Positions 10,438 through 32,474 of a DNA stretch of 64,000 nt are shown piece by piece; the first letter of the stretch is position 1, and every line of letters starts with the position of its first letter. The DNA is from Zootoca vivipara. Lineage: Eukaryota. The DNA lies in contig NC_083292.1 in the NCBI RefSeq assembly GCF_963506605.1, positions 4,154,001 through 4,218,000 on the forward strand. The letters run 5' to 3'. Both the position numbers and the translations under genes were made by a program. Below the pieces are notes generated by a model. The model did not search any database. It saw only the letters and a list, made by a program, of their open reading frames with translations, and was not told the DNA's origin.

Positions 10438-11715
10438 TGATGTCTCTACACAAATGTGCAAAGTATAGGAAACAAGCAAGAAAAACTTGATTTCTTAATA
10501 CAGGATGGCAAATATGACCTAATAGGCATTACTGAAAACTGGTGGGATGTGACTTGTGACTGGAATGTAGAAATTGAGAGGTAAAACCTGCTCAAAAGAA
10601 AGGAGGAGTAGCAGCAGTGCTTTTTTTCTGGGGGGGGGGGAACGCAGGGGTATGCATACTCCTAAACATGTTGTGAATCTTTGTACTTTTGTCCATTTAC
10701 TGTATTTATTTCCCCCGATATGAACTATAAAATGGTGGTCTTCTTGAGTCAAAATGAGAGCACACCTCTCATTTTTTTAAGGAAAAAAAGCACTGAGTAG
10801 CAGAATTATATGTAAAGGATGTATACAGTTGGGAAGAGATCCATGGAAGGAAGAATATATGGGTAAAATATGTAGGAGATGGAAACAACAGTGACTTTAC
10901 TGTGGGTGTCTGCTACAGACCTTCAAGCCAGGCTGAGGACTCAGATTATGCCTTCCTGGAGCAGATTACCAAACAGTCAAAAAGGAGGGATATAGGAGAC
11001 CTCAACTATCCCGATATCTGCTGGAAGCAACAAGGGGATCATCTCATCTTGGACCCAGACCTCACCAACAGGGAGAAACTGATTGATGAAGTTGATGTAC
11101 TGGGAACTTTGGGAGGAAGTGATCATGTCCTCTTGGGTTTCATTATACAGAGGCAAGGGAAAGCTGTGTGTAGTCAGACATGCACACTGGACTTTAAGAA
11201 GGCTGATTTCAAAAAGCTTGAGGAACTACTGGGTGAAGTCCCGCGGTCAGAAATACTCAAAGTGAAGAGAGTCCAAGATGGATAGGAGTTTCTTAACAGT
11301 GAAATACTGAAGGCACAAAGGCAGTCAATTCCAACAAGAAAGAAAAGTGGAAGGCACCTAAAGAAACCGGTGTGGCTACATAAGGAGCTTACAGATGAGC
11401 TGAGATTTAAGAAGGTGATGTGTAAGAAATGGAAGAAAGGAGAAATCATGAAGGAAGAGTATACACAAGTAGCCAGCAGCTGCAAGGAGGTCAGGTGGGC
11501 CAAAGCTCAGAATGAACTCAGACTTGCAAGATAGTTAGGTTAAAAATAATACAAAAATGTTTCTTCAGCTGTGTTCAAAGCAAGAGGAAGAACAAGCAAG
11601 TAGGTGGAGAAATTGAGAAGATGGAGAAGGCAGAGGTGGGTGGCAGAGAAGGCAGAACTGCTGAACATCTCCTGAAAGGGAAAGCAATGCCTATCCTGGT
11701 GATAAAAGAACAAAT
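10438..11715 (+). mobile_element. Old CR1 LINE ORF2 fragment (endonuclease region)
   Basis: Degenerate CLYTN..SIGNKQE, GVCYRP, GDLNYPDICW and LGGSDH motifs, with stops and frameshifts. Confidence 0.88.
10615..10795. mobile_element. hAT MITE nested in the CR1
   Basis: TIR CAGTGCTTTTTTT/AAAAAAAGCACTG; perfect 8-bp TSD AGTAGCAG. Confidence 0.85.
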
Positions 11716-12885
11716 TCCACTGTCAAACAGCTCTTACTGTCAGGAAGTTCTTCCTAATGTTTAGGTGGAATCTTCTTTCTTGTAGCTTGAATCCATTGCT
11801 CCGTGTCCGCTTCTCTGGAGCAGCAGAAAACAACCTTTCACCCTCTTCCATATGACATCCTTTTATATATTTGAACATGGTTATCATATCACCCCTTAAC
11901 CTTCTCTTCTCCAGGCTAAACATATCCAGCTCCCTAAGCCGTTCCTCATAAGGCATTGTTTCCAGGCCTTTGACCATTTTGGTTGCCCTCCTCTGGACAC
12001 GTTCCAGCTTGTCAGTATCCTTCTTGAACTGTGGTGCCCAGAACTGGACACAGTATTCCAGGTGAGGTCTGACCAGAGCGGTATACAGTGGTACTATTAC
12101 TTCCCTTGATCTAGATGCTATACTCCTATTGATGCAGCCCAGAATTGCATTGGCTTTTTTAGCTGCTGCATCACACTGTTGACTCATGTCAAGTTTGTGG
12201 TCTACCACGACTCCTAGATCCTTTTCACATGTACTGTTCTCAAGCCAGGTGTCACCCATCCTGTATTCGTGCCTTTCATTTTTTTTGCCCAAGTGTAGTA
12301 CTTTACATTTCTCCCTGTTACAATTCATCTTGTTTGCTTTGGCCTAGTTCTCTAATCTGTTAAAGTCATTTTGAAGTGTGATCCTGTCCTCTGGGTTATT
12401 GGCTACCCCTCCCAATTTGGTGTCATCTGCAAACTTGCTCAGGATGCCCTCAAGCCCATCATCCAAGTCATTGATAAAGATGTTGAATAAGACTGGGCCC
12501 AAGACAGAACCCTGTGGCACCCCACTAGTCACTACTCTCCAGGATGAAGAGGAGCCATTGATGAGCACCCTTCGGGTTCAGTCAGTCAGCCAGTTACAAA
12601 TCCACTGAATGGTAGCATTGTCTAGCCCGCATTTTACCAGCTTCTTTACAAGAATATAATGGGGCACCTTGTCAAAGGCCTTGCTGAAATCAAGATAGGC
12701 TATATCCACAACATTCTCTTCATCTACCAGGCTTGTAATTCTGTCAAAAAATGAGATCAGATTAGTCTGGCATGACCTATTTTTCAGAAACCCATGCTGG
12801 CTTATAGTGATCACAGCGTTCCTTTCTAGGTGGTCACAGACCATTTGCTTAATGATCTGCTCTAGAATCCTTCCTGGTATTGATG
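11716..12885 (-). mobile_element. Younger CR1 LINE fragment (reverse transcriptase region)
   Basis: [56 protein letters not shown]; a few stop codons. Confidence 0.95.
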
Positions 12886-13019
12886 TCAGGGGTCCCAATG
12901 GGTCCCAGCCAACAAAATGGCTGGGGCAGGTTCCACAGGAGGGATGCACTGGGACAACCGATCTCAGTGATCACGGGTAGGAGGAGGAGTTACACTAAGA
13001 CCAGACCACGTCATCTGGT

Positions 13020-13645
13020 ACAGCTTCATCTGGTACGCAGGCTGAGACCCTACCTGCCTGCGGACTGCCTCACCAGAGTGGTGCATGTTCTGGTAATCTC
13101 TCGCTTGGACTGCTGCAATGCGCTCTATGTGGGGCTGCCTTTGACGGTGACCCGGAAACTACAAATAATCAAGAATGTGGCAGCTATACTGGTGACTGGG
13201 AGCAGCCGCCGAGACCACATAACACCAGTCTTGAAAAACCTACAATGGCTACAATGGCTTCCAGTATGTTTCTGAGCACAGTTCAAAGTGTTGGTGTTGA
13301 CCTTTAAAGCCCTAAACGGCCTTGGTCCAGTATATCTGAAGGAGCGTCTCCACCCCCATCATTCTACCCAGACACTGAGGTCCAGCGCTGAGGGCCTTCT
13401 GGCAGTTCCCTCACTAAGAGAAGCCAAGTTACAGGGAACCAGGCAGAGGGCCTTCTCGTTAGTGTCACCCACCCTGTGGAACGCCCTCCCACCAGATGTC
13501 GAGCAGAACAACAACTACCAGACTTTTAGAAGACATCTGTTTAGGGAAACTTTTATTGTTTGATGGATTACTGTATTTTAATATTTTGTTGGAAGCCGCC
13601 CAGAGTGGCTGGGGAAGCCCGGCCAGATGTGTGGGGTACTAATAA

Positions 13646-13692: not shown

Positions 13693-14256
13693 CCCTATTC
13701 TAGAGTGTAGTCTCAATTCACATGCTCTTGGGAGTGCCATGCATGAACTTAGAATGCATCCTAGTTATAATTTGCACCCAAAACTCAAATGCAGCTGATC
13801 AGTAAAGACGCCATTAATGATGTTTGAATGGAAGAATCCCTGGGGGGCTTCTGAAAGACCCTCTGCCCTGATTTCCCAGAAACACAGTTTGTATCTACAT
13901 TGCTCTGTATATTGGTGTGAGCCCATCTAATAGGCAACTCAGGGTCTCAGTCACATATTTCTGTTTTCTTCCAAGGCAATTATTTTGTTTATGACTACAG
14001 AGCTGCTGGACCTTTTTTATGCTTATTTGTGCTGGTGTTGGTTTAATTTTCCGATCTGGGTGCTGTTGAAATGCTTATTCCATCTAACCAGCTTTGAAAG
14101 ATTTGATTTGACATCAGTTGTGGTGGTTTTCTGCCTTTTCTTGGTGTGTTTTGCATGTTTTGCTTGATTTTATTTGATTTTTGCACCCTGTTCGTCTCAC
14201 CATGCTCTATGTCCGTTTGGTCTAATATTTTTGATTTCCCTGTTTCGTCTCTGTAG

Positions 14257-14421
14257 CGGATGTTGTTCAGTCTCATGGTGGCGTCTTCATGGAAAGTGCA
14301 TCCCCTTCAGCTCCCATTTCAGCCCCCCAATTCAGGGGCTTCCGGAGAGCCAGCGAGGCCAGCATTGCGAGCCAGGTCTCGGGAATGGCAGACAGTTACA
14401 CTGCTTCCAACATAGCCAACA
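14257..14421 (+). CDS. PITPNM2: PITPNM2 coding exon
   Basis: ctgtag|CGGATGTT...AACA|gtaagt; DVVQSHGGVFMESASPSAPISAPQFRGFRRASEASIASQVSGMADSYTASNIAN. Confidence 0.95.
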
Positions 14422-15439
14422 GTAAGTGTTCCTTCCCCCTGGAAATGTCGTCCTTTCCCACTAGCTCCCCTACACCAGGTCTCTGAGCAGCTTGAAGGGT
14501 TGACCGATATCCTGTCCTGCTTCATTCTCGTCATTGGGATTCTGGGGTCTCCAGACTGCAGGCCTAAAAGAACAAGCATTCTCATCTGAAAAGAAAGAGA
14601 GTCGGGGCTGCAGTCTGGTTTCACTTCAATGCTCCTTCAGTTCTTTTAATACTTATTTATTCAAAGTGCTGTGCATGCATCATCTGATTGAAATCCTCAC
14701 ACCATCCCTGTAAGGTAAGTCAGTGTTGTTCGCCTCCATATTGCAAATGGAGAGATTGGGGGGTGAGCTAGAGTGTCTTGCCTAAGGCCACGTCACCCGG
14801 ACACAGGCAAGAGTCAAACCAGGGGCTTGCCGATTCATAGCTCACGTTTCTCTAGCCATTATTTCTACACCAGCTCTTTGCATCTCAGGGATCAGAAGCT
14901 GGAGCTGTTCCACATCTGAAATACATACACACACACTCACAGAGGTACACATGTAATACTTTCTAAGGCTGTCACCTCATTAAAGTTGATAATACTATGG
15001 GTTTGAATTAATCAGTTGCAGAGTTAAATATTTATTAGGGTTATGACTAAAATACTTTTACTTTTTTAAGAAAAGAAAAAAGTCTGTCCATAAACTTCTC
15101 CATCCTACCTGCAAGCAGTATTTGAGACAGTGGTGGGGGTTGGGGGGGCAGTTAGGGAAGGAAATGACTGGATCCTTAGATCATTGGTGTGGATGGTGCT
15201 GCCAGGAAGAACCACAGGTTGCTAGGAGCAGAACTAGAGGTTCCCCTTGATGTGCATAGTGTCTGTAGGGGAGGGGATTATAGCTGTTGCTTAAACAGCC
15301 GGTGCTTTTCCTTCATAGCCCCATCACACTACCAAAGGACAAAAATTAAGTTGCATTCTTTGCGTGACTTGTGTTTTAACAGGTGTGTGTTTTGTTTTTG
15401 TTTTGTCTTTCCCCCTACCGTTTTAAATGTTCCTTTTAG

Positions 15440-15649
15440 AAAACAAACACCATCTCACCCACTCCAGGGGGTTTAGCCTTTTAGCCCTGCTTGCCCTCCC
15501 ACACAAGGCCCCCCCACAACCCTCACCCAAAAGGCATAGGGCACCTAAACCTGAAATTTCCCAGAACCCCTTAGGAAGAAGGGTTGGGAGCTCCTCCCAT
15601 TGGGAAGTGGATGCCATTCTACAGATCCCGGACCTGGACATCAACAAAG
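15440..15649 (+). CDS. PITPNM2: PITPNM2 210-nt symmetric (phase 1-1) exon, probably an alternatively spliced cassette
   Basis: ttttag|AAAAC...AAAG|gtattc; NKHHLTHSRGFSLLALLALPHKAPPQPSP...QIPDLDINK, resembling recalled human LSLLALPAP...LPELDIGE; phases fit both neighbours. Confidence 0.8.
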
Positions 15650-16260
15650 GTATTCTGGAGAGAGACAAGGGGAGCAAGATGCATCACTGACTAACCTCCT
15701 CTGTCACTCTCTCCAGAGCCAAATGGGTCTGCTTTTCATGGGACTCCTTCACCATCTTGGCATAGTTTAAACAACACTTGCTTCCACTCTGCTTTGATGA
15801 CTAACTTTCTTGCCTCTAACAAGCCACCTCTGTAGTGCACACTCTGATTAATTTTAAAATCCTCCACAGCACTTGCAGTACTGTTGCTGCTGTTTCTTAG
15901 GAGGAAGCAGCTATTCTTGACTGTCCTGTTCGGAGGATCCCAAAATCACAGCTGCAGGCCATAAATGCTTTGAACTGCAAATAGAAAGCTGGAACACCTC
16001 CGCTTATGAGATGGCTTTGGCTTGAGAGTAGTAATAATTGCAAGTTTGTTTTGATAACTACTCATCTCTTATGTCAGAATCTGGGGGGAAGGAAGTCTTT
16101 TTTGGCAGGATTTTCCAGAAGTTTTGGTTTTCTTGCTGGTCTGGTACAACACAATCTGTTCTATGATGGTTACAGGTAGGTAGCCGTGTTGGTCTGGATC
16201 GAAGTAAAATAAAAAAATTCCTTCAGTAGCACCTTAAAGACCAACTAAGTTTTTATTTTG

Positions 16261-16298
16261 GTATGAGCTTTCGTGTGCATGCACACTTCTTCAGATAC
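16261..16298 (-). ncRNA. Minimal type-I hammerhead ribozyme (inverted copy)
   Basis: Exact reverse complement of 16349-16386. Confidence 0.78.
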
Positions 16299-16348
16299 AG
16301 TGAAATGGAAGTTTCCAGGCACTAGAAATGGAAAACTTCCATTTCACT

Positions 16349-16386
16349 GTATCTGAAGAAGTGTGCATGCACACGAAAGCTCATAC
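16349..16386 (+). ncRNA. Minimal type-I hammerhead ribozyme (Penelope-associated)
   Basis: GUAU-CUGAAGA-a-GUGUG(CAUG)CACAC-GAAA-GC-UC^-AUAC: conserved core, stem I GUAU/AUAC, stem II, palindromic AGCU in place of stem III. Confidence 0.78.
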
Positions 16387-17809
16387 CAAAATAAAAACTT
16401 AGTTGGTCTTTAAGGTGCTACTGAAGGAATTTTTTTATTTTGTTCTATGATGGACATCTGTGGTAAGGCAAATGAATAAATTTGAGAAATCCAGCAGGGC
16501 AATTGAAGCTATGCTGTCAGAATGGCAATTTATGTCCTCCATGCAACTAAATGGGAGTTCTCCTAACAGGACAATGTTTGGTTTCCTCCTCTTGCCTTTG
16601 CACTGAAATTCTATAACAAGGAGCCTAGAGAGGATCTGCTGTGGGAATTGGTGAGGCGAGGGGCATCCTTTCTCAACAATACATTTCCTGCCTTTTCTTT
16701 TGACACTCAGCAGCTTTTGAGAGGCTGTTGTTGATTTAGAAATGTGTATGGGAATATGTGTTTTTAAAAATTAGACACCCAGAAATGGTAAGTTTGCAGG
16801 TGCTAAGGTGCCTCGGCGGTGGTCTCCTGACACATAGCTATACTGTAATGAGAAGACAGGTAAGTGACAGACTGAAGTACAATTTCCGCTTTTGTTCCTA
16901 AAGAACTTTGGTGCCCGGTTTAATATGTGGTTTGAACCCAACTCCCTCTGTTCCAGAGGCCATGACAGGCTTTCTGTGCTGGCTGAGGCTGATGGGAAGT
17001 TGTAGGGCAAAACATCTGAAGGGCACCAATTTGGGGGAAGCATAAAATGTTCTGAAACGTCTAAGAACCACCAATTAATTTCTCCTCTCTTACTGTGGGA
17101 CATGGCCATGCTACAAATCTATAGTAGTTTCATACTTGTTTAACTGCCATGGCTTCCCACAAAGAATCCTAGGAATCACCCTTGTGCTGACAAGACTGAG
17201 AATGTGCTGTGCTACAAGTGAGATCTGCAACCAAATGCTGCAGCATGGAGTGCTCCTGTTCAAAGTGCCAACCAGCAGCTTCCTCTTCTAGGATACGCTG
17301 TTCTCCTCCCCCGCAACCTGACTTTCTCCTTTCTTTACAGTTCTCCACCCCATAGGCAGCACTGACTATGTTCATCCTCACTGGGATGTTGGAAGTAGGG
17401 ACTCGCCCCAAGAGTTTCCTCTTCTGCAAACATCAGGGTTCTACTGATAATGTGGATACCTTCCTCTTGTATGTAAGTGATGCCAGTTTGATTACATAAA
17501 GATCAGCACTTCTCTCTGAATGTGGCTGACAGGAGGATTGATTGAGCTGACACCAGCACCATCCTGCCCTTCACAGCAGTTTGAGTTTCCAGGGTTTCTT
17601 GGGAGAGAGGCAGGTTTTTTTGAAAAGCAATACCAGTGAAGAGTACCAGTGAAGAATTCTCTTGCAGTATCCTCAAAGGGACACCACACTCCCCCACCCC
17701 TGCTTCAGGGTTTTTTTTAAGTCGCCATGACAGTTTAACTGATATGAAACCTGATATGAATCCTGAGAAGTGGAGTTTGTTATGGTTGCCGAGAGTTGTC
17801 AGGAGAGCT

Positions 17810-19700
17810 TCAAAAAAAAAATGCAGAGAGCAAAATCAACCCCAGTATATGGCGCTTATTGACCTGACTGAGGCCTTCGACACTGTACTGCCCTGTGGAC
17901 TGTCCTTCTGAAAACTGGCTGCCCAGATAAATTTTTGAACGTCCTTCTGCTCCTCCATGATAACATGATGGCAACAATTGCAGATACCAATGGCTCTCAA
18001 AGTGAACCATTCACAGTGGGATCAGGTGTTAAACAGGGATGTGTTATCACCCCAATTCTATTTATTATCTTCATCGCCATGATCCTACACATTGTCGAAG
18101 GGAAACTCCCCAGCAGAGTAGAAATTATATATCATCAACAACAAAATTTTATTGCATTAGCCGGTTGGCCATAGCACATAAAGGATCCAGGCAGTAACCT
18201 ACCACTATTATACAGAGAATGTATCAAATGCACTTGCAAAACAGCGAATATAAAATCATGCTATATAAAACAGATTTTGGTAAAAACTATGACACATCAT
18301 GTGTGTTTCGTCTGTTGCAAAATATTTAGAGAGATCTGAGTCTAGAGAAAGTTAGCCTGTCAAAAGAGCCCTGAGTTTCAGGGCCTGCAAGATGTAGATG
18401 GCCACTCATCGGGTAACCCTGGGGTTAGCGTCCACCAATAGAAATTTCATGCAGTCATCTTCCAAGGCAATGAGCAGAGGAATTAGTAGAGGGAGCCTCG
18501 GTCTTATTGCGTCGTATAGGAGGCAGTGAAAGAAAAAGTGGATAACATCCTCTATCTTTCCCTTGTTACACGGCCAGTGTCGAAGGTCGGGGGGAGTGTT
18601 GGAAACTATACTCCCCAACAGAGTAGAAATTATATATCAAACAGATAGAAAGCTCTTTAATCTGAGTGGCTCGAAGCAAAGAATAAGGTTACCACAACTT
18701 CCATCATAGAGCTTCAGTATGCTGATGACAACGTAGTGTGTGCACACTCAGAAGATGACCTCCAAACCATCCTAAATATCTTCACAGAAGCTTATGAAAA
18801 GTTTGGTCTATTGCTCAATATCCAAAAAAACCAAAGTGCACAAGCACAAAACAACCCCTCTGCAGCGCCACAAATCCAACTTAATGGTGTAATGTTGGAA
18901 AGTGTCAATCATTTGGTCCTACCGTACCTGGACCGTTACCTTTCCACAAGGGCCAGCATTGATGCCAAAATCCAGCATCGCCTGAGCTCTGTGAGTGCAG
19001 CTTTCTCCCGATTGAAGCACAGAGTGTTTGAGGACTGGGACATGCACAGGTGAACCAAAATGCTCATTTACAAAGCTATTGTACTACCAATATTACTCTA
19101 CACTTGTGAAACATGGACCACTTATAAACGCCATTTCCAGCTCTTTGAAAAATTCCATCAACCGACTGTCCTTGGGAAGACAGGTGAACTAATGCCAGTG
19201 TACTGCAAAAAGCAAAAATCGCTAGTGTTGAAGCAATGATTCTTCAGCATCAACTTCATTGGACTTGTCATGTTGTTCGGATGCCTGATTACCGTCTTCC
19301 AAAGCAACTACTCCATTCCCATCTCAAGAATGGAAGGCGAAATACCGGTGGATAACAAAATAGGTTTAAAGCCGCTCTCAAAGCAAACCTAAAATAATGT
19401 AACATAAGCAATGATAACTGGGAAACACTGGGCTGCAAATGCTCCAATTGGAGAACAGCCTTTACCAAAGGTATCATAGACTTTGAAGAAGCTTGAACTC
19501 AGGGCAAAAAGGAGAAACGTGCTAAGAGGAAGGCACATTTGACAAACCCTCACCATGATCAACTCCTGCTCAGAAACCTATGTCCCCACTGTGGAAGGAC
19601 GTGTGGATCCAGAATTGTCCTCCACAGTCATGGACTCACTGTTAAGACTGTGTTCATGGAAGACAATCTTCTCGGCTACGAGTGATCGTCAAAGAAGGAG
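17810..19700 (+). mobile_element. RTE-clade LINE fragment (RT region to 3' end), interrupted by another LINE at 18135-18609
   Basis: KCREQNQP..IDLTEAFDTV, GVKQGCVITPILF, QYADD, CPHCGR near the 3' end; frameshifted. Confidence 0.88.
18135..18609 (-). mobile_element. 5'-truncated LINE 3' end with a CCHC-like motif (clade uncertain, RTE-X-like?)
   Basis: CNKGKIEDVIHFFFHCLLYDAIR; GGCC..GGCT..AATAAA end; flanked by a 30-bp direct repeat. Confidence 0.65.
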
Positions 19701-20014
19701 ACGACTCCCTTCACAGAGCTACAATTCCCAGGATTCCCAGGGAAGAAGCATGAATTATTAAACCAAATTACACTTCCCAGGATTCTTTAGGGGAAGCAAT
19801 GACTGTTTAAAGCAGTGTGACACTGCTTTAATTGTATAGTGCAGATGGGGCCAAAGTTGTTACACCCAGAAAGAGAGTTTTCAGACATTTTAGTCGGAAA
19901 AGCAATGGGCCTGAAATAGAAATAGAAATAGACTTGAATTATTTTTTACTTTTCTTTTCCATGAAAGGAATAATCCAAACGTTGGGGTTTTGTCTCCTTT
20001 TGTTTTGTTCCCAG

Positions 20015-20163
20015 TTGCTGCCAAATGGTGGGGAACGAAAAGAATAGACTATGCTCTCTATTGCCCCGATGCCCTCACCGCCTTCCCTACGGTGGCCTTA
20101 CCGCACCTCTTCCATGCAAGCTACTGGGAGTCAACAGATGTGGTTTCCTTCCTCCTCAGGCAG
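20015..20163 (+). CDS. PITPNM2: PITPNM2 coding exon (end of DDHD)
   Basis: cccag|TTGCTGCC...CAG|gtcagt; [49 protein letters not shown]. Confidence 0.97.
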
Positions 20164-21957
20164 GTCAGTCCTATTTGGTTTGCAAATCTCCAGCATACAG
20201 AGGGACTGTGCTCACACTCCCATTTGCTGTGCACTCACTGTGTTTCCAGCCCCAGGTCTTTAATCCATGTTCACACAACGTTATCCAAAACGCTACTCTT
20301 TGATGTGCTGTTCTCAAGCCTGCTTCGCACCAGTTTGGAGTCCTTAAGTTCCTAGTCCATCTCTAGCCAAGGTGTAAAACCTTTCCATAGGGTAAATGCA
20401 TCCTCTCCCGGGCAACATCCTCTGTTCTGTTGTGTACACAAACAGAAATTAGTTTGACACTAATGAAACCCTGCTGATGTGAGCAGCCAGAGGGATAGAA
20501 CGGTGAAACTATTTCACTGTGTTCTAATGTGAACACACCCTCAGTCCTCTGTTAGTATTAAATTGCAGAGGGAACTCACAGTTATTCAATGAAACTGGAC
20601 ACCACTAATTTATCATGAATTTTGCTTTGCATTTTTGCAAGCTGAAAATATCTGAGGCAAAGCTACAAATATAATGAATGACTCTCCCTCTTAATAAATG
20701 TAGCTTATGATACCCTTGGCAAAGTGTTCATATTTCTAGTGCTCATGATGGTAGCGGGGACAACGACGACTGTGGGGGCTTTGACTTAAGAATTTGTGGG
20801 CATGTGTGTGATGTGACATCTTCTAGCCTTCTTGCCTGCATACCCCTCCTCTCACAAACTTTCTGTTAGTTTCAACTTTTCAGTATCATAACAAAAAATA
20901 ACTGGAACAAAAATTATGTAAAAGCAAAACCTCTAGGATTGACCAACTAAAATAAAGCATGCAGTTTAAATGCATGAATGTTTTGCATAGTTTAGGCCAG
21001 TTCATGAAATTCATTACTTTTAAGCTGCAATCCTATATGCATTCGGCTGAATTCAGAGTCCCCCTGAATTCAGTAGACCTTGTTTCAGAAAAGCCATGTA
21101 TAGGATTGCACTGTTCATGGAGTTTTCTAGATGCTTGCCATCCTCAATATGATAGATTCAGAAAAGGAGGCAAGAGGATAGATTGGTCTCTGAAACACTT
21201 TTCTACCAGAATCCTGTAGCCAGAGTTGCCTTAGTTAGATTGCTAAATCTGCTGGAATCTTATGTCATCCAAGGAAGTGTCTGGTGCTGCAGAGCTGAGT
21301 CAAGAAGTCAGTGGATCTGGAGGCAATGTGTGATAATAACGCATTTCTGAAGAAAAGATTTCCCCAGAGCAGGGAGAAAAGGGTTGGGATGCCATCAGAA
21401 TGAGCACACAGCTTTCGCATGAGGACAGCAGACTAAGTGATGACAAAGGATTGCATCCATTCCCCCAGTAGGAGAAAGCTTTTCCTGCTATAGGAATAAA
21501 ACGTTTGCAGAATGTGGCAGACATGGCTGCACACAACTTCACTGTACTAGAAACACACATACATACTTCTCATCCTGGAGTGAGCTGCAAGAAAGGGATG
21601 GGTGAGTTTTGAAATTTTTTCAGCAGATTGGGGAAGCTGAGTATGATGGGTTCCTATAGGCTAGCACTTGTGACGTCACCAGCATGCCTTCCTCTATCCC
21701 TAAAGCAGTTGTCAAACTGGTTTTTTTAATGTTCATAAACTTCTATACATTTTTAACAGGAGAATAGGCATAAAAGTATACATACTTTGTTATAAAAAAA
21801 TTTAAAAGTATATCCACTCCCTAAAACACGTGGCGAGACATTAAGAGTCAGAGACCTGATCCAGCATTCAATTTGCAAGAAGCATTACAAATGGAAGGCA
21901 GTTTTGGAAGCTGCTTCCAAGAGTGGCCATTCCAAGCGTGGCCATTTCTGTATAGCT

Positions 21958-27082: not shown

Positions 27083-29093
27083 GTTGTATTATTCACAAAA
27101 CTGTGTTAGCAATAACATAAATATTTTGGCATTAGTTAGCTAATTAATGTATATTGGGTGGTTCTCTCCTCCTTTGCCACATATTAAAGAGCTACTTTCA
27201 TTTTGAGGCACAAATAAAATAAATACTCTGAGATCTAGGACTCCTTCTAGAACTGTTTGCATGGTCTGTCCACTATGTGGGCTTCCCCTCCCCTTTCACT
27301 TCCTAGCCCCTTCTCCTCCTTCTCCTTCTTCTAATTTGTCTTTTTTCTTATTTCTTTACTCCTTTTTACTCTTTGCTTTGATTGCATAAGTCTGATCTCC
27401 TTAATGATATTGTGAATTGATATGCTGCTTTTTTTACCTTTATTGTTCATGTTTTGTTACTTGCATTGTTACAAAACTTCTAAAAGAACCAATAAACTAT
27501 GAATAATAATAAAAAAACCACCACCAACATATAGAGTGATAAAAATCTGATCCCAGTTCAAGCCACAAATGTTAAAATTGAACCTCTTGATAAATTCTAA
27601 TTCATCGGTTTCACATTGCAGTCTTCTTTTGAGAATAGTCATCTTATGGCAGCATGTCCTACCTAGGAGCTTCAAATCTTCAACTGCTTTTTTAAAAATA
27701 TTGCCTTTCTGATGCGAAATAGAATTCTTCTTGAAAAGATATCATAATGACTCACCCACACATATAGATATATGGCATGATTTTATTTCTTGTACAGCAT
27801 CATTCACTGCCATCCGTATATGCAAATGTCTGGTTTATTTAAGACTATATAGAACCTTTATTCTCAATAATGAAGGAAATCACAGGTGGAGAATTTTATA
27901 AAACTTTAGTATCTGTAAAGGGAAACTTAATGTGAGTTAATACCTTTTTAATCCTTTGGAGCTGCACTGAACCTTTGTACTTTTCTCCTTCCAAGCTGTG
28001 ATTCTTTATGGCTTACATTTTTTTTATTCTTTGTTGTTGTTTTCTTGTTTATTGTTTGTTTGTTTTTGCTTCCCCCCCTGTTAATAATAAAAGAGTAAGG
28101 GGGGGGGTTAAAATAGCATCCTTTGTTCCAGGGGTGCTTCTTCATAGCACATCCCTGTTCCAAGGCCTCTTTTTGTGGCCTGAGACTCTTAGAGGTAATG
28201 GTTTCCCTACCCATGTTTCTTGGGATTCCAAAATTCATTTCCTGGTCTTTTTAGTTGCACATGCAAAAAAAGGGGGGTGGAGCCAAGATGGCTACGGAGT
28301 AGCAAGCAGGCTTCGGCACTCCGCTGATAACAGGACTAAATAGTGCCACCCAGGGAAGTAAATTTTCCTTTTTTCCTTTTCTACTTTTAAACTCACCAAC
28401 CTACTAAGATTTTATCAGCACCTTCTTATCTATGCTATGAGAAACACCCTGGGCAAGTTCCATGAAGCATCCTGGGCAGGCCACCAGCTGCTAGCTATTA
28501 ACCGCCAGCTCCCTTTTATACTTTGCCCTTGGAACTCCTGGCAGTCACTACAGAGAAACTCTTAAACTGAACAAATTGAGAACTTTCTACCTCTTCTTTT
28601 CTTCGGTTAAGGAAACTTTTCCTTCTTTACTTCCCACTGCAATACTATGCCTACTAGTAAACGCAACAGGGACCCAGAGGAAGCAGTCCCATCTCCCGCT
28701 TCCAAGCAATCTAAAATTTTAAACAAATCTGCTTTTACAGTCCCAACAAAAAACCGTTTCTCTCCCCTTGAAGATGACTGTGAAGATGAGGAGAATACTC
28801 GGGGTGGGGGCGCAGAATTGGATCCAACGATGGCGCAAGCTGACCCTGTGCCTTTAAGCGAGGAAGGAACAACAAGTTGGGAGAGCACTCAATTAACTCT
28901 AATTGCAAGAACGGTTGAGCATATCTTCCAACAAATTAGAGGTATTGCCTCTCAAATATCCCAATTATCTAAAGAGGTCCACAGTTTATCAGCTAATAAC
29001 AAGCAGGCACTAGCAGAACATCAGAGCACCAAAGTGAAATGGCGACAACAAGAGCAGACCCCTAAGCTCGACGTAGAACGCGTAGACGTAAAA

Positions 29094-29833
29094 CTTGGGC
29101 AAACAAATAAAAGGCACAAATTCCGGATGGGTGACACGTGGCTTGAGAGCAGTACATGTGAAAAGGATCTAGGAGTCTTGGTAGACCACAAACATGACAT
29201 GAGTCAATAGTGTGATGCAGCAGCTAAAAAAGCCAATGCAATTCTGGGCTGCATCAATAGGAGTATGGCATCTAGATCAAGGGAAGTAATAGTACCACTG
29301 TATTCCGCTCTGGTCAGACCTCACCTGGAGTACTGTGTCCAGTTCTGGGCACCACAGTTCAAGAAGGATACTGACAAGCTGGAACGTGTCCAGAGGAGGG
29401 CTACCAAAATGGTCAAAGGCCTGGAAACGATGCCTTATGAGGAACGGCTTAGGGACCTGGGTATGTTTAGCCTGGAGAAGAGAAGGTTAAGGGGTAATAT
29501 GATAGCCATGTTCAAATATATAAAAGGATGTCATATAGAGGAGGGAGAAAGTTTGTTTTCTGCTGCTCCAGGGAAGCGGACACGGAGCAATGGATTCAAG
29601 CTACAAGAAAGAAGATTCCACCTAAACATTAGGAAGAACTTCCTGATAGTAAGAGCTGTTCGCCAGTGGAATTTGCTACCAAGGAGTGTGGTGGAGTCTC
29701 CTTCTTTGGAGGTCTTTAAGCGGAGGCTTGACAGCCATCTGTCAGGAATGCTTTGATGGTGTTTCCTGCTTGGCAGGGGGTTGGACTGGATGGCCCTTGT
29801 GGTCTCTTCCAACTCTATAATTCTATTATTCTA
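29094..29833 (+). mobile_element. Young 5'-truncated CR1 LINE with intact 3' end
   Basis: LGQTNKRHKFRMGDTWLESSTCEKDLGVLVD...[11 protein letters not shown]...; 3' UTR and (TTCTA)-type tail; near-identical to 11716-12290 in opposite orientation. Confidence 0.95.
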
Positions 29834-31494: not shown

Positions 31495-32389
31495 GTAAGC
31501 AAGCTCTCTCTCAGCAGGTTTAGGGAGAACTTCTCAAAGTGCCCAGAGGCTGTGTCTATCCAAACAGCGCATGGAAATATCTGTGGGTAGTGTGAGGAGG
31601 TGTCATCCTGAACCAAACTAAGTATCCAACAGACGTGGAAGATTTTTGGTGATGTTCCAGACACTGGCCAGTTGTTAGCGAAGTCACTTAAATAGAGCAA
31701 ATGGAGTCCAGAGATAAAAGAAACTGATAATACTTTGGGGGACAGAAAAATCTAGTATATCATATGAGGAGAAATAGAGAGGTGTTTTGTCTTTCTTAGT
31801 AGCTAAGCTCTAGTCCATAACAGGAATATATACTAATACAGTGGAGAATTCCCTCAGAACTAATCAGCTGATCAGAACCTCTTGAACATCTAACAAACAC
31901 AGTTTTGACAAACTCAGTTCACGGAGCTTCAATTTTTAACCATAGTTCATAGAATTGTAGAATTGGAAGGGATTACAAGGGTCACCCCCGACAATGCAGG
32001 AATCTCAACTGAAGCATCCATGACTGATGGCCATCCAGTCTCTTCATTACATTCACCTGAGACATTTTAACTAGGGATGCTAGAGCATCCATTCATTTTG
32101 CCAAAAAAGGTGCTGTGGATGGTGTATGTTCCAAGTGCACATGTGCAAAATCCCCCCAAAAGCTCTGAGCATTCTCCTCCACCTCCCTCTTCCCCTGTCA
32201 GTAGACAAAAAAACTTCCCTTTGGGCAGGCAAAGGAAGAAGCAGAGGTGGCGGCTGCAGGCGGTGGTACAGTTGCCCAGTTAGGCAATGTTAGACTCCTA
32301 AGTGTCTTCAGGCGGTCTTTGGTAATAGAAATGGGAAAATGTGTCAGGTTCAAGTTTCTCTTTGTTTCTCATTTTTCCAAAAAATAAAT

Positions 32390-32474
32390 AAAAATAATAA
32401 TCCTTCCAGTAGCACCTTAGAGACCAACTGAGTTTGTCATAGGTATGAGCTTTCATGCACACTTCTTCAGATAC
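32390..32474 (-). mobile_element. Penelope-like fragment with a stem-II-deleted hammerhead
   Basis: tccttccagtagcaccttagagaccaact...ggtatgagctttcatgcacacttcttcagatac; lacks one stem II arm. Confidence 0.75.

What the first reader, a model, noticed from the sequence alone, without database searches (positions are those of the whole stretch)
16157..16453. Perfect hairpin insertion carrying a hammerhead ribozyme on each strand, inside a PITPNM2 intron
Seen: two 109-bp arms with no mismatch, an 18-nt spacer and a 13-bp TSD, which indicates a very recent insertion. Each arm holds CUGAAGA / stem II / GAAA-GC-UC with stem I GUAU:AUAC, and the predicted cut is after C16382 on +. Known: Penelope-like elements carry minimal type-I hammerheads that cleave mainly as dimers through a palindromic stem III (here AGCU). 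Inference: the PITPNM2 pre-mRNA contains a sense ribozyme directly downstream of its own antisense copy. Folding into a 109-bp dsRNA would silence the ribozyme and create an ADAR/Dicer substrate, about 500 nt from a cassette exon. The ribozyme class is known; this self-inhibiting arrangement in a host intron is the point of interest.
Basis: partly seen in the sequence, partly recalled or inferred. Interest (0 to 1): 0.7.

Follow-up and report, generated by a model that had tools for sequence, protein, structure and literature searches.

The report
Ordinary mirror-image Penelope retrotransposon stub
This perfect DNA hairpin in an intron is a young, back-to-back stub of a very abundant Penelope-type jumping gene, one of about a thousand or more such hairpins in this genome; its tiny self-cutting RNA motif is predicted to stay zipped up, so the spot is likely an ordinary insertion scar rather than a gene switch.

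Summary
The hairpin (109/109 bp, 18-nt spacer), the 13-bp target duplication and a minimal type-I hammerhead motif on each strand are real. The insert is two 5'-truncated ends of an intact Neptune-type Penelope-like element (RT + GIY-YIG ORF, 3,030-bp tandem unit), joined head to head; one end carries the known 36-nt tail. It is not special: the genome holds 13,219 exact copies of the motif and 995 head-to-head pairs with 60 nt or less between them. The pattern is published. Folding predicts the sense ribozyme fully paired; a lone copy also lacks its dimer partner. The insertion is present in three other samples and inferred absent in a fourth. No locus-specific editing, cleavage or exon skipping was seen, but RNA coverage was too thin to test it. 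The family is more informative than this copy: 56 of 56 duplication-flanked head-to-head insertions have exactly one tailed end. 27% of motif copies lose the element's sequence exactly before the ribozyme's first base, mostly with an extra G (likely the RNA cap), against 2% at the cut site. The scan has noted such stubs before in other genomes.

The parts
16157..16169 (+). Left copy of the 13-bp target-site duplication; its last 3 nt (TGG) also match the element's tail end (possible primer-template pairing)
   Evidence: D11; left copy matches the full-length element from 16167
16167..16323 (-). Tail-bearing 5'-truncated copy of the element's pLTR (157 nt, identical to an intact tandem copy, L071)
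16170..16205 (-). The 36-nt Penelope 'tail', present on this end only; in the full element it lies just upstream of the ORF's ATG
   Evidence: tail defined in PMC8557442, PMC11167929
16261..16298 (-). Minimal type-I hammerhead motif, antisense to the host gene
   Evidence: sequence; mirror of 16349-16386
16324..16332 (+). 9-nt junction filler; 8 nt repeat 16302-16309 (templated-insertion type joint)
16333..16441 (+). Tail-less 5'-truncated copy of the pLTR (109 nt, identical to L071); right arm of the hairpin
16349..16386 (+). Minimal type-I hammerhead motif, sense to the host gene; predicted cut after C16382; its first base is the family's inferred transcription start
   Evidence: sequence
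16441..16453 (+). Right copy of the target-site duplication
15440..15649 (+). Host exon (210 nt, frame-preserving), spliced to 14257-14421 upstream and to the exon at 20015 downstream; 508 nt from the insertion
   Evidence: X20 record 3; joint 15649 to 20015, GT..AG
14257..14421 (+). Upstream host exon
20015..20165 (+). Downstream host exon (end of the DDHD domain); the end coordinate is that of the RNA contig piece

Best explanation
The 297 bases are one young insertion of two truncated, head-to-head ends of an abundant, intact Neptune-type Penelope-like retrotransposon, likely made when the element's protein nicked both strands 13 bp apart and reverse-transcribed the same end of its RNA onto each nick; in the host pre-mRNA the ribozyme is predicted to be locked in the duplex, and the insert is likely a neutral passenger. 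Shown: structure, identity of both arms to a full-length element, family size, one-tail asymmetry, presence in three samples. Inferred: (1) each 3' end of the target primed at one of two internal start sites about 38 nt apart, one giving the tailed and one the tail-less arm; (2) both cDNAs stopped early (26 and 16 nt upstream of the ribozyme) and were joined by end-joining with a short templated filler; (3) since both arms reach upstream of the inferred transcription start, the template was a downstream pLTR of a tandem or read-through transcript; (4) in the intron the antisense arm is made first and captures the sense arm, giving a 109-bp dsRNA that ADAR may edit like any inverted repeat, with no selected function.
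For: The parent ORF has RVT_1 and GIY-YIG above cut-off, a CX4CxxC linker finger and a 3,030-bp tandem unit. Both arms are exact matches to it. 13,219 exact motif copies; 803 + 192 head-to-head pairs within 0-30 / 31-60 nt (controls 0). 56 of 56 duplication-flanked head-to-head insertions have one tailed and one tail-less end, median repeat length 13 (36 of 36 among loci found without the tail in the query). In vitro a lizard PLE protein nicks and extends both strands and starts at two internal sites that bound the tail (PMC11167929). Duplex -204.8 against -135.1 kcal/mol for the hammerhead-competent fold. An exact 11-nt core search found no other sense copy in the window, and a looser pattern found none in the 20 kb upstream.
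Against: No experiment on this RNA. Flank coverage in the three raw RNA runs was 0-4 reads, and those samples carry flank alleles unlike the window's, so they may lack the insertion; a local effect on splicing is therefore not excluded. The insertion appears homozygous in three samples, which fits drift but also mild selection. PMC3846280 explains inverted junctions by self-priming instead. In vitro the two start sites were used alike on both strands (PMC11167929), which does not by itself explain the strict one-tail rule. The gene upstream of the 20 kb fetched was not checked for partner ribozymes.
Confidence: 0.87

Rival explanations
1. The hairpin is a functional self-inhibited ribozyme or dsRNA element that tunes PITPNM2 splicing or stability.
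For: It lies on the sense strand 508 nt from a frame-preserving exon. A 109-bp perfect duplex is a plausible ADAR substrate (general knowledge). It appears homozygous in three samples.
Against: Identical to thousands of copies and to the active parent; inferred absent in sample S5; no exon-skipping joint among the 15 of 47 joints shown and no pile of ends at 16382/3 (weak data); single minimal hammerheads are inactive in vitro (PMC4209133); tandem hammerhead repeats are depleted from Xenopus introns (bioRxiv 10.64898/2026.07.22.740005).
Confidence: 0.06
2. The mirror image arose by fold-back self-priming of one cDNA (or of an antisense template), not by two primings at the target.
For: Proposed for rotifer elements from palindromes at inverted junctions (PMC3846280); some short pairs have almost no spacer.
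Against: Both outer ends abut the duplication and end at two different fixed sites in 56 of 56 cases. Arms of very unequal length, with either arm the longer, and fillers or duplications at the joint are common. A fold-back copy would have to stop 38 nt short each time.
Confidence: 0.12
3. The hairpin is a self-propagating non-autonomous element (MITE- or retrozyme-like) copied as a unit.
For: Four other loci are nearly the same size, 92-95% identical over most of the query.
Against: Each of those has its own junction sequence, and junctions differ among the pairs listed; arm lengths run continuously from about 90 bp to 3.5 kb; no second copy of this junction among the 40 scored candidates.
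Confidence: 0.03
4. Assembly artefact.
For: Perfect palindromes can be long-read artefacts; no single contig spans the whole hairpin.
Against: Target duplication, asymmetric tail and filler; both junctions are present in contigs of three independent samples at single-copy depth.
Confidence: 0.01

Closest known systems
Endonuclease-bearing Penelope-like element insertions with an inverted 5'-truncated pLTR and a one-sided 30-40-bp tail (PMC8557442 fig. 2 legend; Pen2a_Av, PMC3846280)
   Same: Head-to-head truncated copies, tail on one end, variable-length target duplication, hammerhead in the pLTR, TATA/Inr-like motifs.
   Different: Only in size: both copies are cut down to 157 and 109 nt, so nothing but the pLTR end is left.
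Minimal type-I hammerheads of metazoan PLE pLTRs (PMC4209133; review PMC6765202)
   Same: Core, 4-bp stem I, extra base between positions 9 and 10.1, G10.1-C11.1 pair, palindromic AGCU in place of stem III; dual motifs on opposite strands 100-700 bp apart are mentioned there.
   Different: Stem II here is 5 bp and is a perfect 14-nt palindrome; activity of this variant is untested.
Poseidon element of the green anole, PAc (PMC11167929)
   Same: Lizard-type PLE, two internal reverse-transcription starts bounding the tail, both strands nicked, uncleaved RNA as template.
   Different: This family has the Neptune-type linker finger. Its ORF starts after the tail, whereas in PAc the ORF starts inside the ribozyme and the tail lies within the ORF.
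Non-LTR retrozymes (bioRxiv 10.64898/2026.07.22.740005)
   Same: Short PLE-derived sequence with a type-I hammerhead.
   Different: Retrozymes are head-to-tail tandems that can dimerise; this is a head-to-head pair that cannot.

Membership tests
EN+ Penelope-like element | Parent ORF with RT and C-terminal GIY-YIG endonuclease | tested here: met
   RVT_1 E 1.5e-12 and GIY-YIG E 5.2e-05, both above cut-off; open frame of 925 codons in tandem copies
EN+ Penelope-like element | Tandem units forming pLTRs; 5' truncation; inverted truncated copy | tested here: met
   3,030-bp period; inverted copies
EN+ Penelope-like element | 30-40-bp tail at one end; variable target duplication | tested here: met
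   36-nt tail and 13-bp duplication here; 56 of 56 in the family
Neptune clade | [quoted passage not shown] | tested here: met
   CNKPRCQLC and IKCQQC-x-YIG; definition in PMC8557442. The finger is shared with Nematis.
Neptune clade | Phylogenetic placement of the RT among reference Neptune elements | not tested
   No reference PLE sequences were fetched
Minimal type-I hammerhead | Core CUGANGA / GAAA / UH with stems I and II and a palindromic stem III | tested here: met
   Read from the sequence; stems I and II form in the isolated fold
Minimal type-I hammerhead | Match to an Rfam hammerhead model | tested here: not met
   No hammerhead family among the matches at E<=10; a motif without stem III may fall outside those models (inference)
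Minimal type-I hammerhead | Self-cleavage, as a dimer or protein-assisted | not testable with these tools
   Indirect only: no large peak of copy ends at the cut site; no pile of RNA ends there
Non-LTR retrozyme | Two or more head-to-tail units, each with a hammerhead | tested here: not met
   Head-to-head, one motif per strand
Host-exapted intronic ribozyme or dsRNA regulator | Conservation at the orthologous site and an effect on the host RNA | tested here: inconclusive
   Inferred empty site in sample S5 speaks against conservation; RNA depth too low for the effect

The most novel reading that the evidence does not exclude
The family's copies record the Penelope insertion mechanism in vivo. 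A capped RNA starts at the first base of the hammerhead, about 31 nt below a TATA-like box, and is used uncut. One complex primes both nicked target strands on one RNA, first at the upstream site and then at the still single-stranded tail site with displacement of the first cDNA. This would force every two-armed insertion to carry exactly one tail (56 of 56) and would leave a cap-derived G on copies that reach the RNA's start.
Probability: 0.4. Interest if true: 0.55.

Novelty: new member of a known kind. Interest (0 to 1): 0.2.

Why it matters
The single copy matters little: it is one of a very large set of like insertions. As a set they do two things. They load this genome's transcripts with perfect dsRNA hairpins, a likely non-mammalian counterpart of inverted Alu pairs. 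And they give countable evidence on an incompletely understood transposition cycle: a strict one-tail rule, a likely capped start at the ribozyme's first base, and no large sign that the template RNA is cut. An intact, high-copy 900-residue Neptune-type ORF would be a good substrate for repeating the published in vitro assay on a second clade.

Tried and rejected
Rfam scans gave only sub-threshold miRNA-hairpin matches caused by the perfect stem. No listed holder of the locus was on record as RNA. Three raw RNA runs (about 6% of each read) and one RNA-guess contig set were laid on 13900-20400: depth over the insert comes from other family copies, flank depth is 0-4, and the commonest A>G/T>C differences (16198, 16205) also stand in DNA contigs, so they are subfamily variants and not evidence of editing. 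No joint using the donor-like CAG|GTAGGT at 16176/7 was among the 15 of 47 joints shown. No solved PLE structure was found (best E 0.066). The look-up of earlier findings by sequence found nothing. Lünse et al. 2017 could not be read. I first read the pile of copy ends at 16349 as a subfamily boundary; that is rejected as the sole cause, because 29 of 30 G-preceded copies have non-element sequence upstream (read by eye). Copies starting at the ribozyme cut site were sought: 262 of 13,144 (2.0%) lack the preceding C; no neighbouring-base control was run at that place, so a small peak is not excluded.

Full report
Observation. The hairpin and the duplication are as described: 109-nt arms at 16206-16314 and 16333-16441, fully complementary, 18 nt apart, inside a 13-nt direct repeat. 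The hammerhead motif reads correctly from the sequence on + at 16349-16386, with the cut after C16382, and in mirror image at 16261-16298. Rfam has no hammerhead match here, so this is a motif-level call, matching the minimal motif described in PMC4209133. The host gene has DDHD and PITM LNS2 exons, with SR-25 and OGFOD2-like genes downstream (6 of 7 pieces matched a family, the 15440 exon did not). The name PITPNM2 rests on recalled synteny. One RNA-guess contig joins 14257-14421 to 15440-15649, and a GT..AG joint links 15649 to 20015. The exon is real; skipping was not seen among the 15 of 47 joints shown.

What it is. A genome search returned 80 matches from 40 scored of 735 candidates, most 99-100% identical over the first 160 nt. 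Longer copies run into an ORF with reverse transcriptase and GIY-YIG domains, with a CX4CxxC linker finger that marks Neptune or Nematis elements (PMC8557442). Full copies stand in tandem with a 3,030-bp period and an open frame of 925 codons; the first ATG follows the tail. The window insert is a 157-nt copy of the element end on - (16167-16323, with tail), a 9-nt filler and a 109-nt tail-less copy on + (16333-16441), both identical to a tandem copy. Eight of the nine filler bases repeat 16302-16309.

How common. The 38-nt motif occurs exactly 13,219 times (reversed control 0). Head-to-head pairs with 0-30 and 31-60 nt between the two stem-I starts number 803 and 192 (each is counted on both strands, and I give the one-strand figure). 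The window copy has 50 nt and belongs to the second class. Among the first 100 listed hits of a neighbouring motif, 21 pairs are head-to-head within 4 kb against 3 tail-to-tail (these cover only the first 5 Mb of contig C1). A ribozyme downstream of its own antisense copy is thus routine here, and any such pair in an intron gives the host RNA this arrangement in either orientation.

Age and reality. In contigs of three other samples (X1, X3, X4; one study) the unique flanks run 21-36 nt into the element on both sides at single-copy depth (about 24), unbroken at the duplication, which suggests homozygous presence. In X9, a sample with six differences in the flanks, one contig aligns from 16441 after 52 unaligned letters, and the neighbouring contig ends at 16134. 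With 30-nt overlaps, those 52 letters are exactly 16105-16156, the empty site. This is an inference from coordinates at depth 5; the joint itself was not among the rows shown. The insertion is young and polymorphic between lineages, but not private.

How it likely formed. Of 77 head-to-head candidate pairs in the fetched loci, I kept those flanked by a shared 10-nt-or-longer repeat, after removing duplicates and low-complexity matches: 56 remained, and all 56 have one end at +126 to +140 (tailed) and one at +102 or less (tail-less, mostly +88 to +98), counting from the stem-I G. 36 of these were found without the tail in the query. In the unfiltered set, 6 pairs were tail-less at both ends and 1 tailed at both; none had a 10-nt duplication and they are probably separate insertions. 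The published in vitro work shows nicking and extension of both strands, and two internal start sites that bound the tail (PMC11167929). The simplest reading is two primings, one per nick, followed by end-joining of the two cDNAs. Here the left duplication shares TGG with the tail end and the right shares one T, as primer-template pairing would give. That the two arms never use the same site suggests one RNA primed twice; this is inference, and an asymmetric dimer would do as well.

Start of the RNA and the cut site. Extending the exact motif 5'-ward loses 7.2% and 9.3% of copies at the two bases inside it, then 27.3% (3,605 of 13,219) at the base before the stem-I G. Of those, 2,390 have G, 758 A and 457 C, where the element has T. 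By eye, 29 of 30 G-preceded copies have non-element sequence upstream. In the 6 of 30 where a duplication abuts, the G is absent from the target in 3 and could be target-derived in 3. A TATA-like box lies about 31 nt upstream in the subfamilies seen. I infer a capped start at or near the ribozyme's first base, with the cap copied as an extra base; bases further upstream were not counted genome-wide. At the ribozyme cut site only 2.0% of copies are lost, and in 124 arms not selected for this, 16 start at 0 to +2 and 2 within +31 to +39. The template is therefore mostly uncut, as in vitro (PMC11167929). The window's arms extend 26 and 16 nt upstream of this start, so they came from a downstream pLTR.

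What it does in the host RNA. The insert folds at -204.8 kcal/mol with each ribozyme base paired to the other arm (p>=0.997); forcing the hammerhead fold gives -135.1. A single minimal hammerhead showed no cleavage, and dimers only low activity (PMC4209133). No second sense copy was found in the window or 20 kb upstream. Editing of the duplex is plausible on general grounds, but was untestable: RNA depth over the insert comes from other copies, flanks have 0-4 reads, and the RNA samples share flank alleles that differ from the window, one of them (15363) with X9.

Comparison with what is known. Inverted truncated pLTRs with a one-sided tail are standard for these elements (PMC8557442, PMC3846280, PMC8969392). 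Dual minimal hammerheads on opposite strands were noted in 2014 (PMC4209133). I did not find the strict one-tail rule or the cap-G signal in searches, but the library lacks several core PLE papers, the tail is already described as 'often' one-sided, and unchecked notes of this scan on other genomes reach similar readings (seen after my own analysis).

What I read. PMC11167929: parts 1-2 of 4 (all main text) and passages. PMC4209133: parts 1-2 of 4. bioRxiv 10.64898/2026.07.22.740005: part 1 of 5 and passages. PMC8557442, PMC3846280, PMC6765202, PMC8969392: passages only. Lünse et al. 2017: not held, known only through the review. No supplements were read; those of PMC11167929 and PMC4209133 may already show reptile motifs or end distributions like these. 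That the animal is a lizard is my inference, not a tool result.

Verdict. Real, correctly described, ordinary. Interest 0.2; the family-level mechanistic signals are the part worth keeping.

Noticed in passing
window 32379-32474 (- strand, approximate): A second, older family copy in the same gene: a solo tail-less stub that begins exactly at the stem-I G, with an 11-12-bp duplication and a 6-nt deletion that destroys stem II.
   Followed up: partly
genome-wide; window equivalent 16349: 27% of exact motif copies lose element sequence at the base before the stem-I G, two thirds of them with G; a TATA-like box lies about 31 nt upstream. Likely capped transcription start.
   Followed up: yes
56 fetched loci (L002-L189): Every duplication-flanked head-to-head insertion has exactly one tailed end.
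   Followed up: yes
window 16361-16374: Stem II is a perfect 14-nt palindrome; two copies co-fold through it as a 14-bp duplex (-30.6 kcal/mol), which may compete with the active dimer.
   Followed up: partly
window 16174-16182: The antisense tail brings a strong donor-like CAG|GTAGGT onto the host's sense strand; every antisense tailed copy would do so. No use seen in thin RNA data.
   Followed up: partly
L071 (G000:C2:103029500-103038500), L072, L073-L076: Intact full-length tandem elements with an open 925-codon frame, and multi-kilobase perfect palindromes up to about 8 kb; 40 of 40 scored copies of the 5' ORF region are near-identical.
   Followed up: partly
G000:C1:2777821-2779652: Four head-to-tail motif copies at a 598-bp period, a retrozyme-like tandem that could form dimers.
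   Followed up: no
L043: A palindromic insertion in a (TATAC)n-type simple repeat, with a 64-nt direct repeat at its ends.
   Followed up: no
junction spacers listed: Many joints hold short repeated pieces of the arm ends, like templated insertions of microhomology-mediated end-joining (mechanism recalled).
   Followed up: no
window 17600-19050, 10800-13560, 28600-29750: Fragments of LINE-type reverse-transcriptase frames in the host introns, judged by eye from the translations.
   Followed up: no
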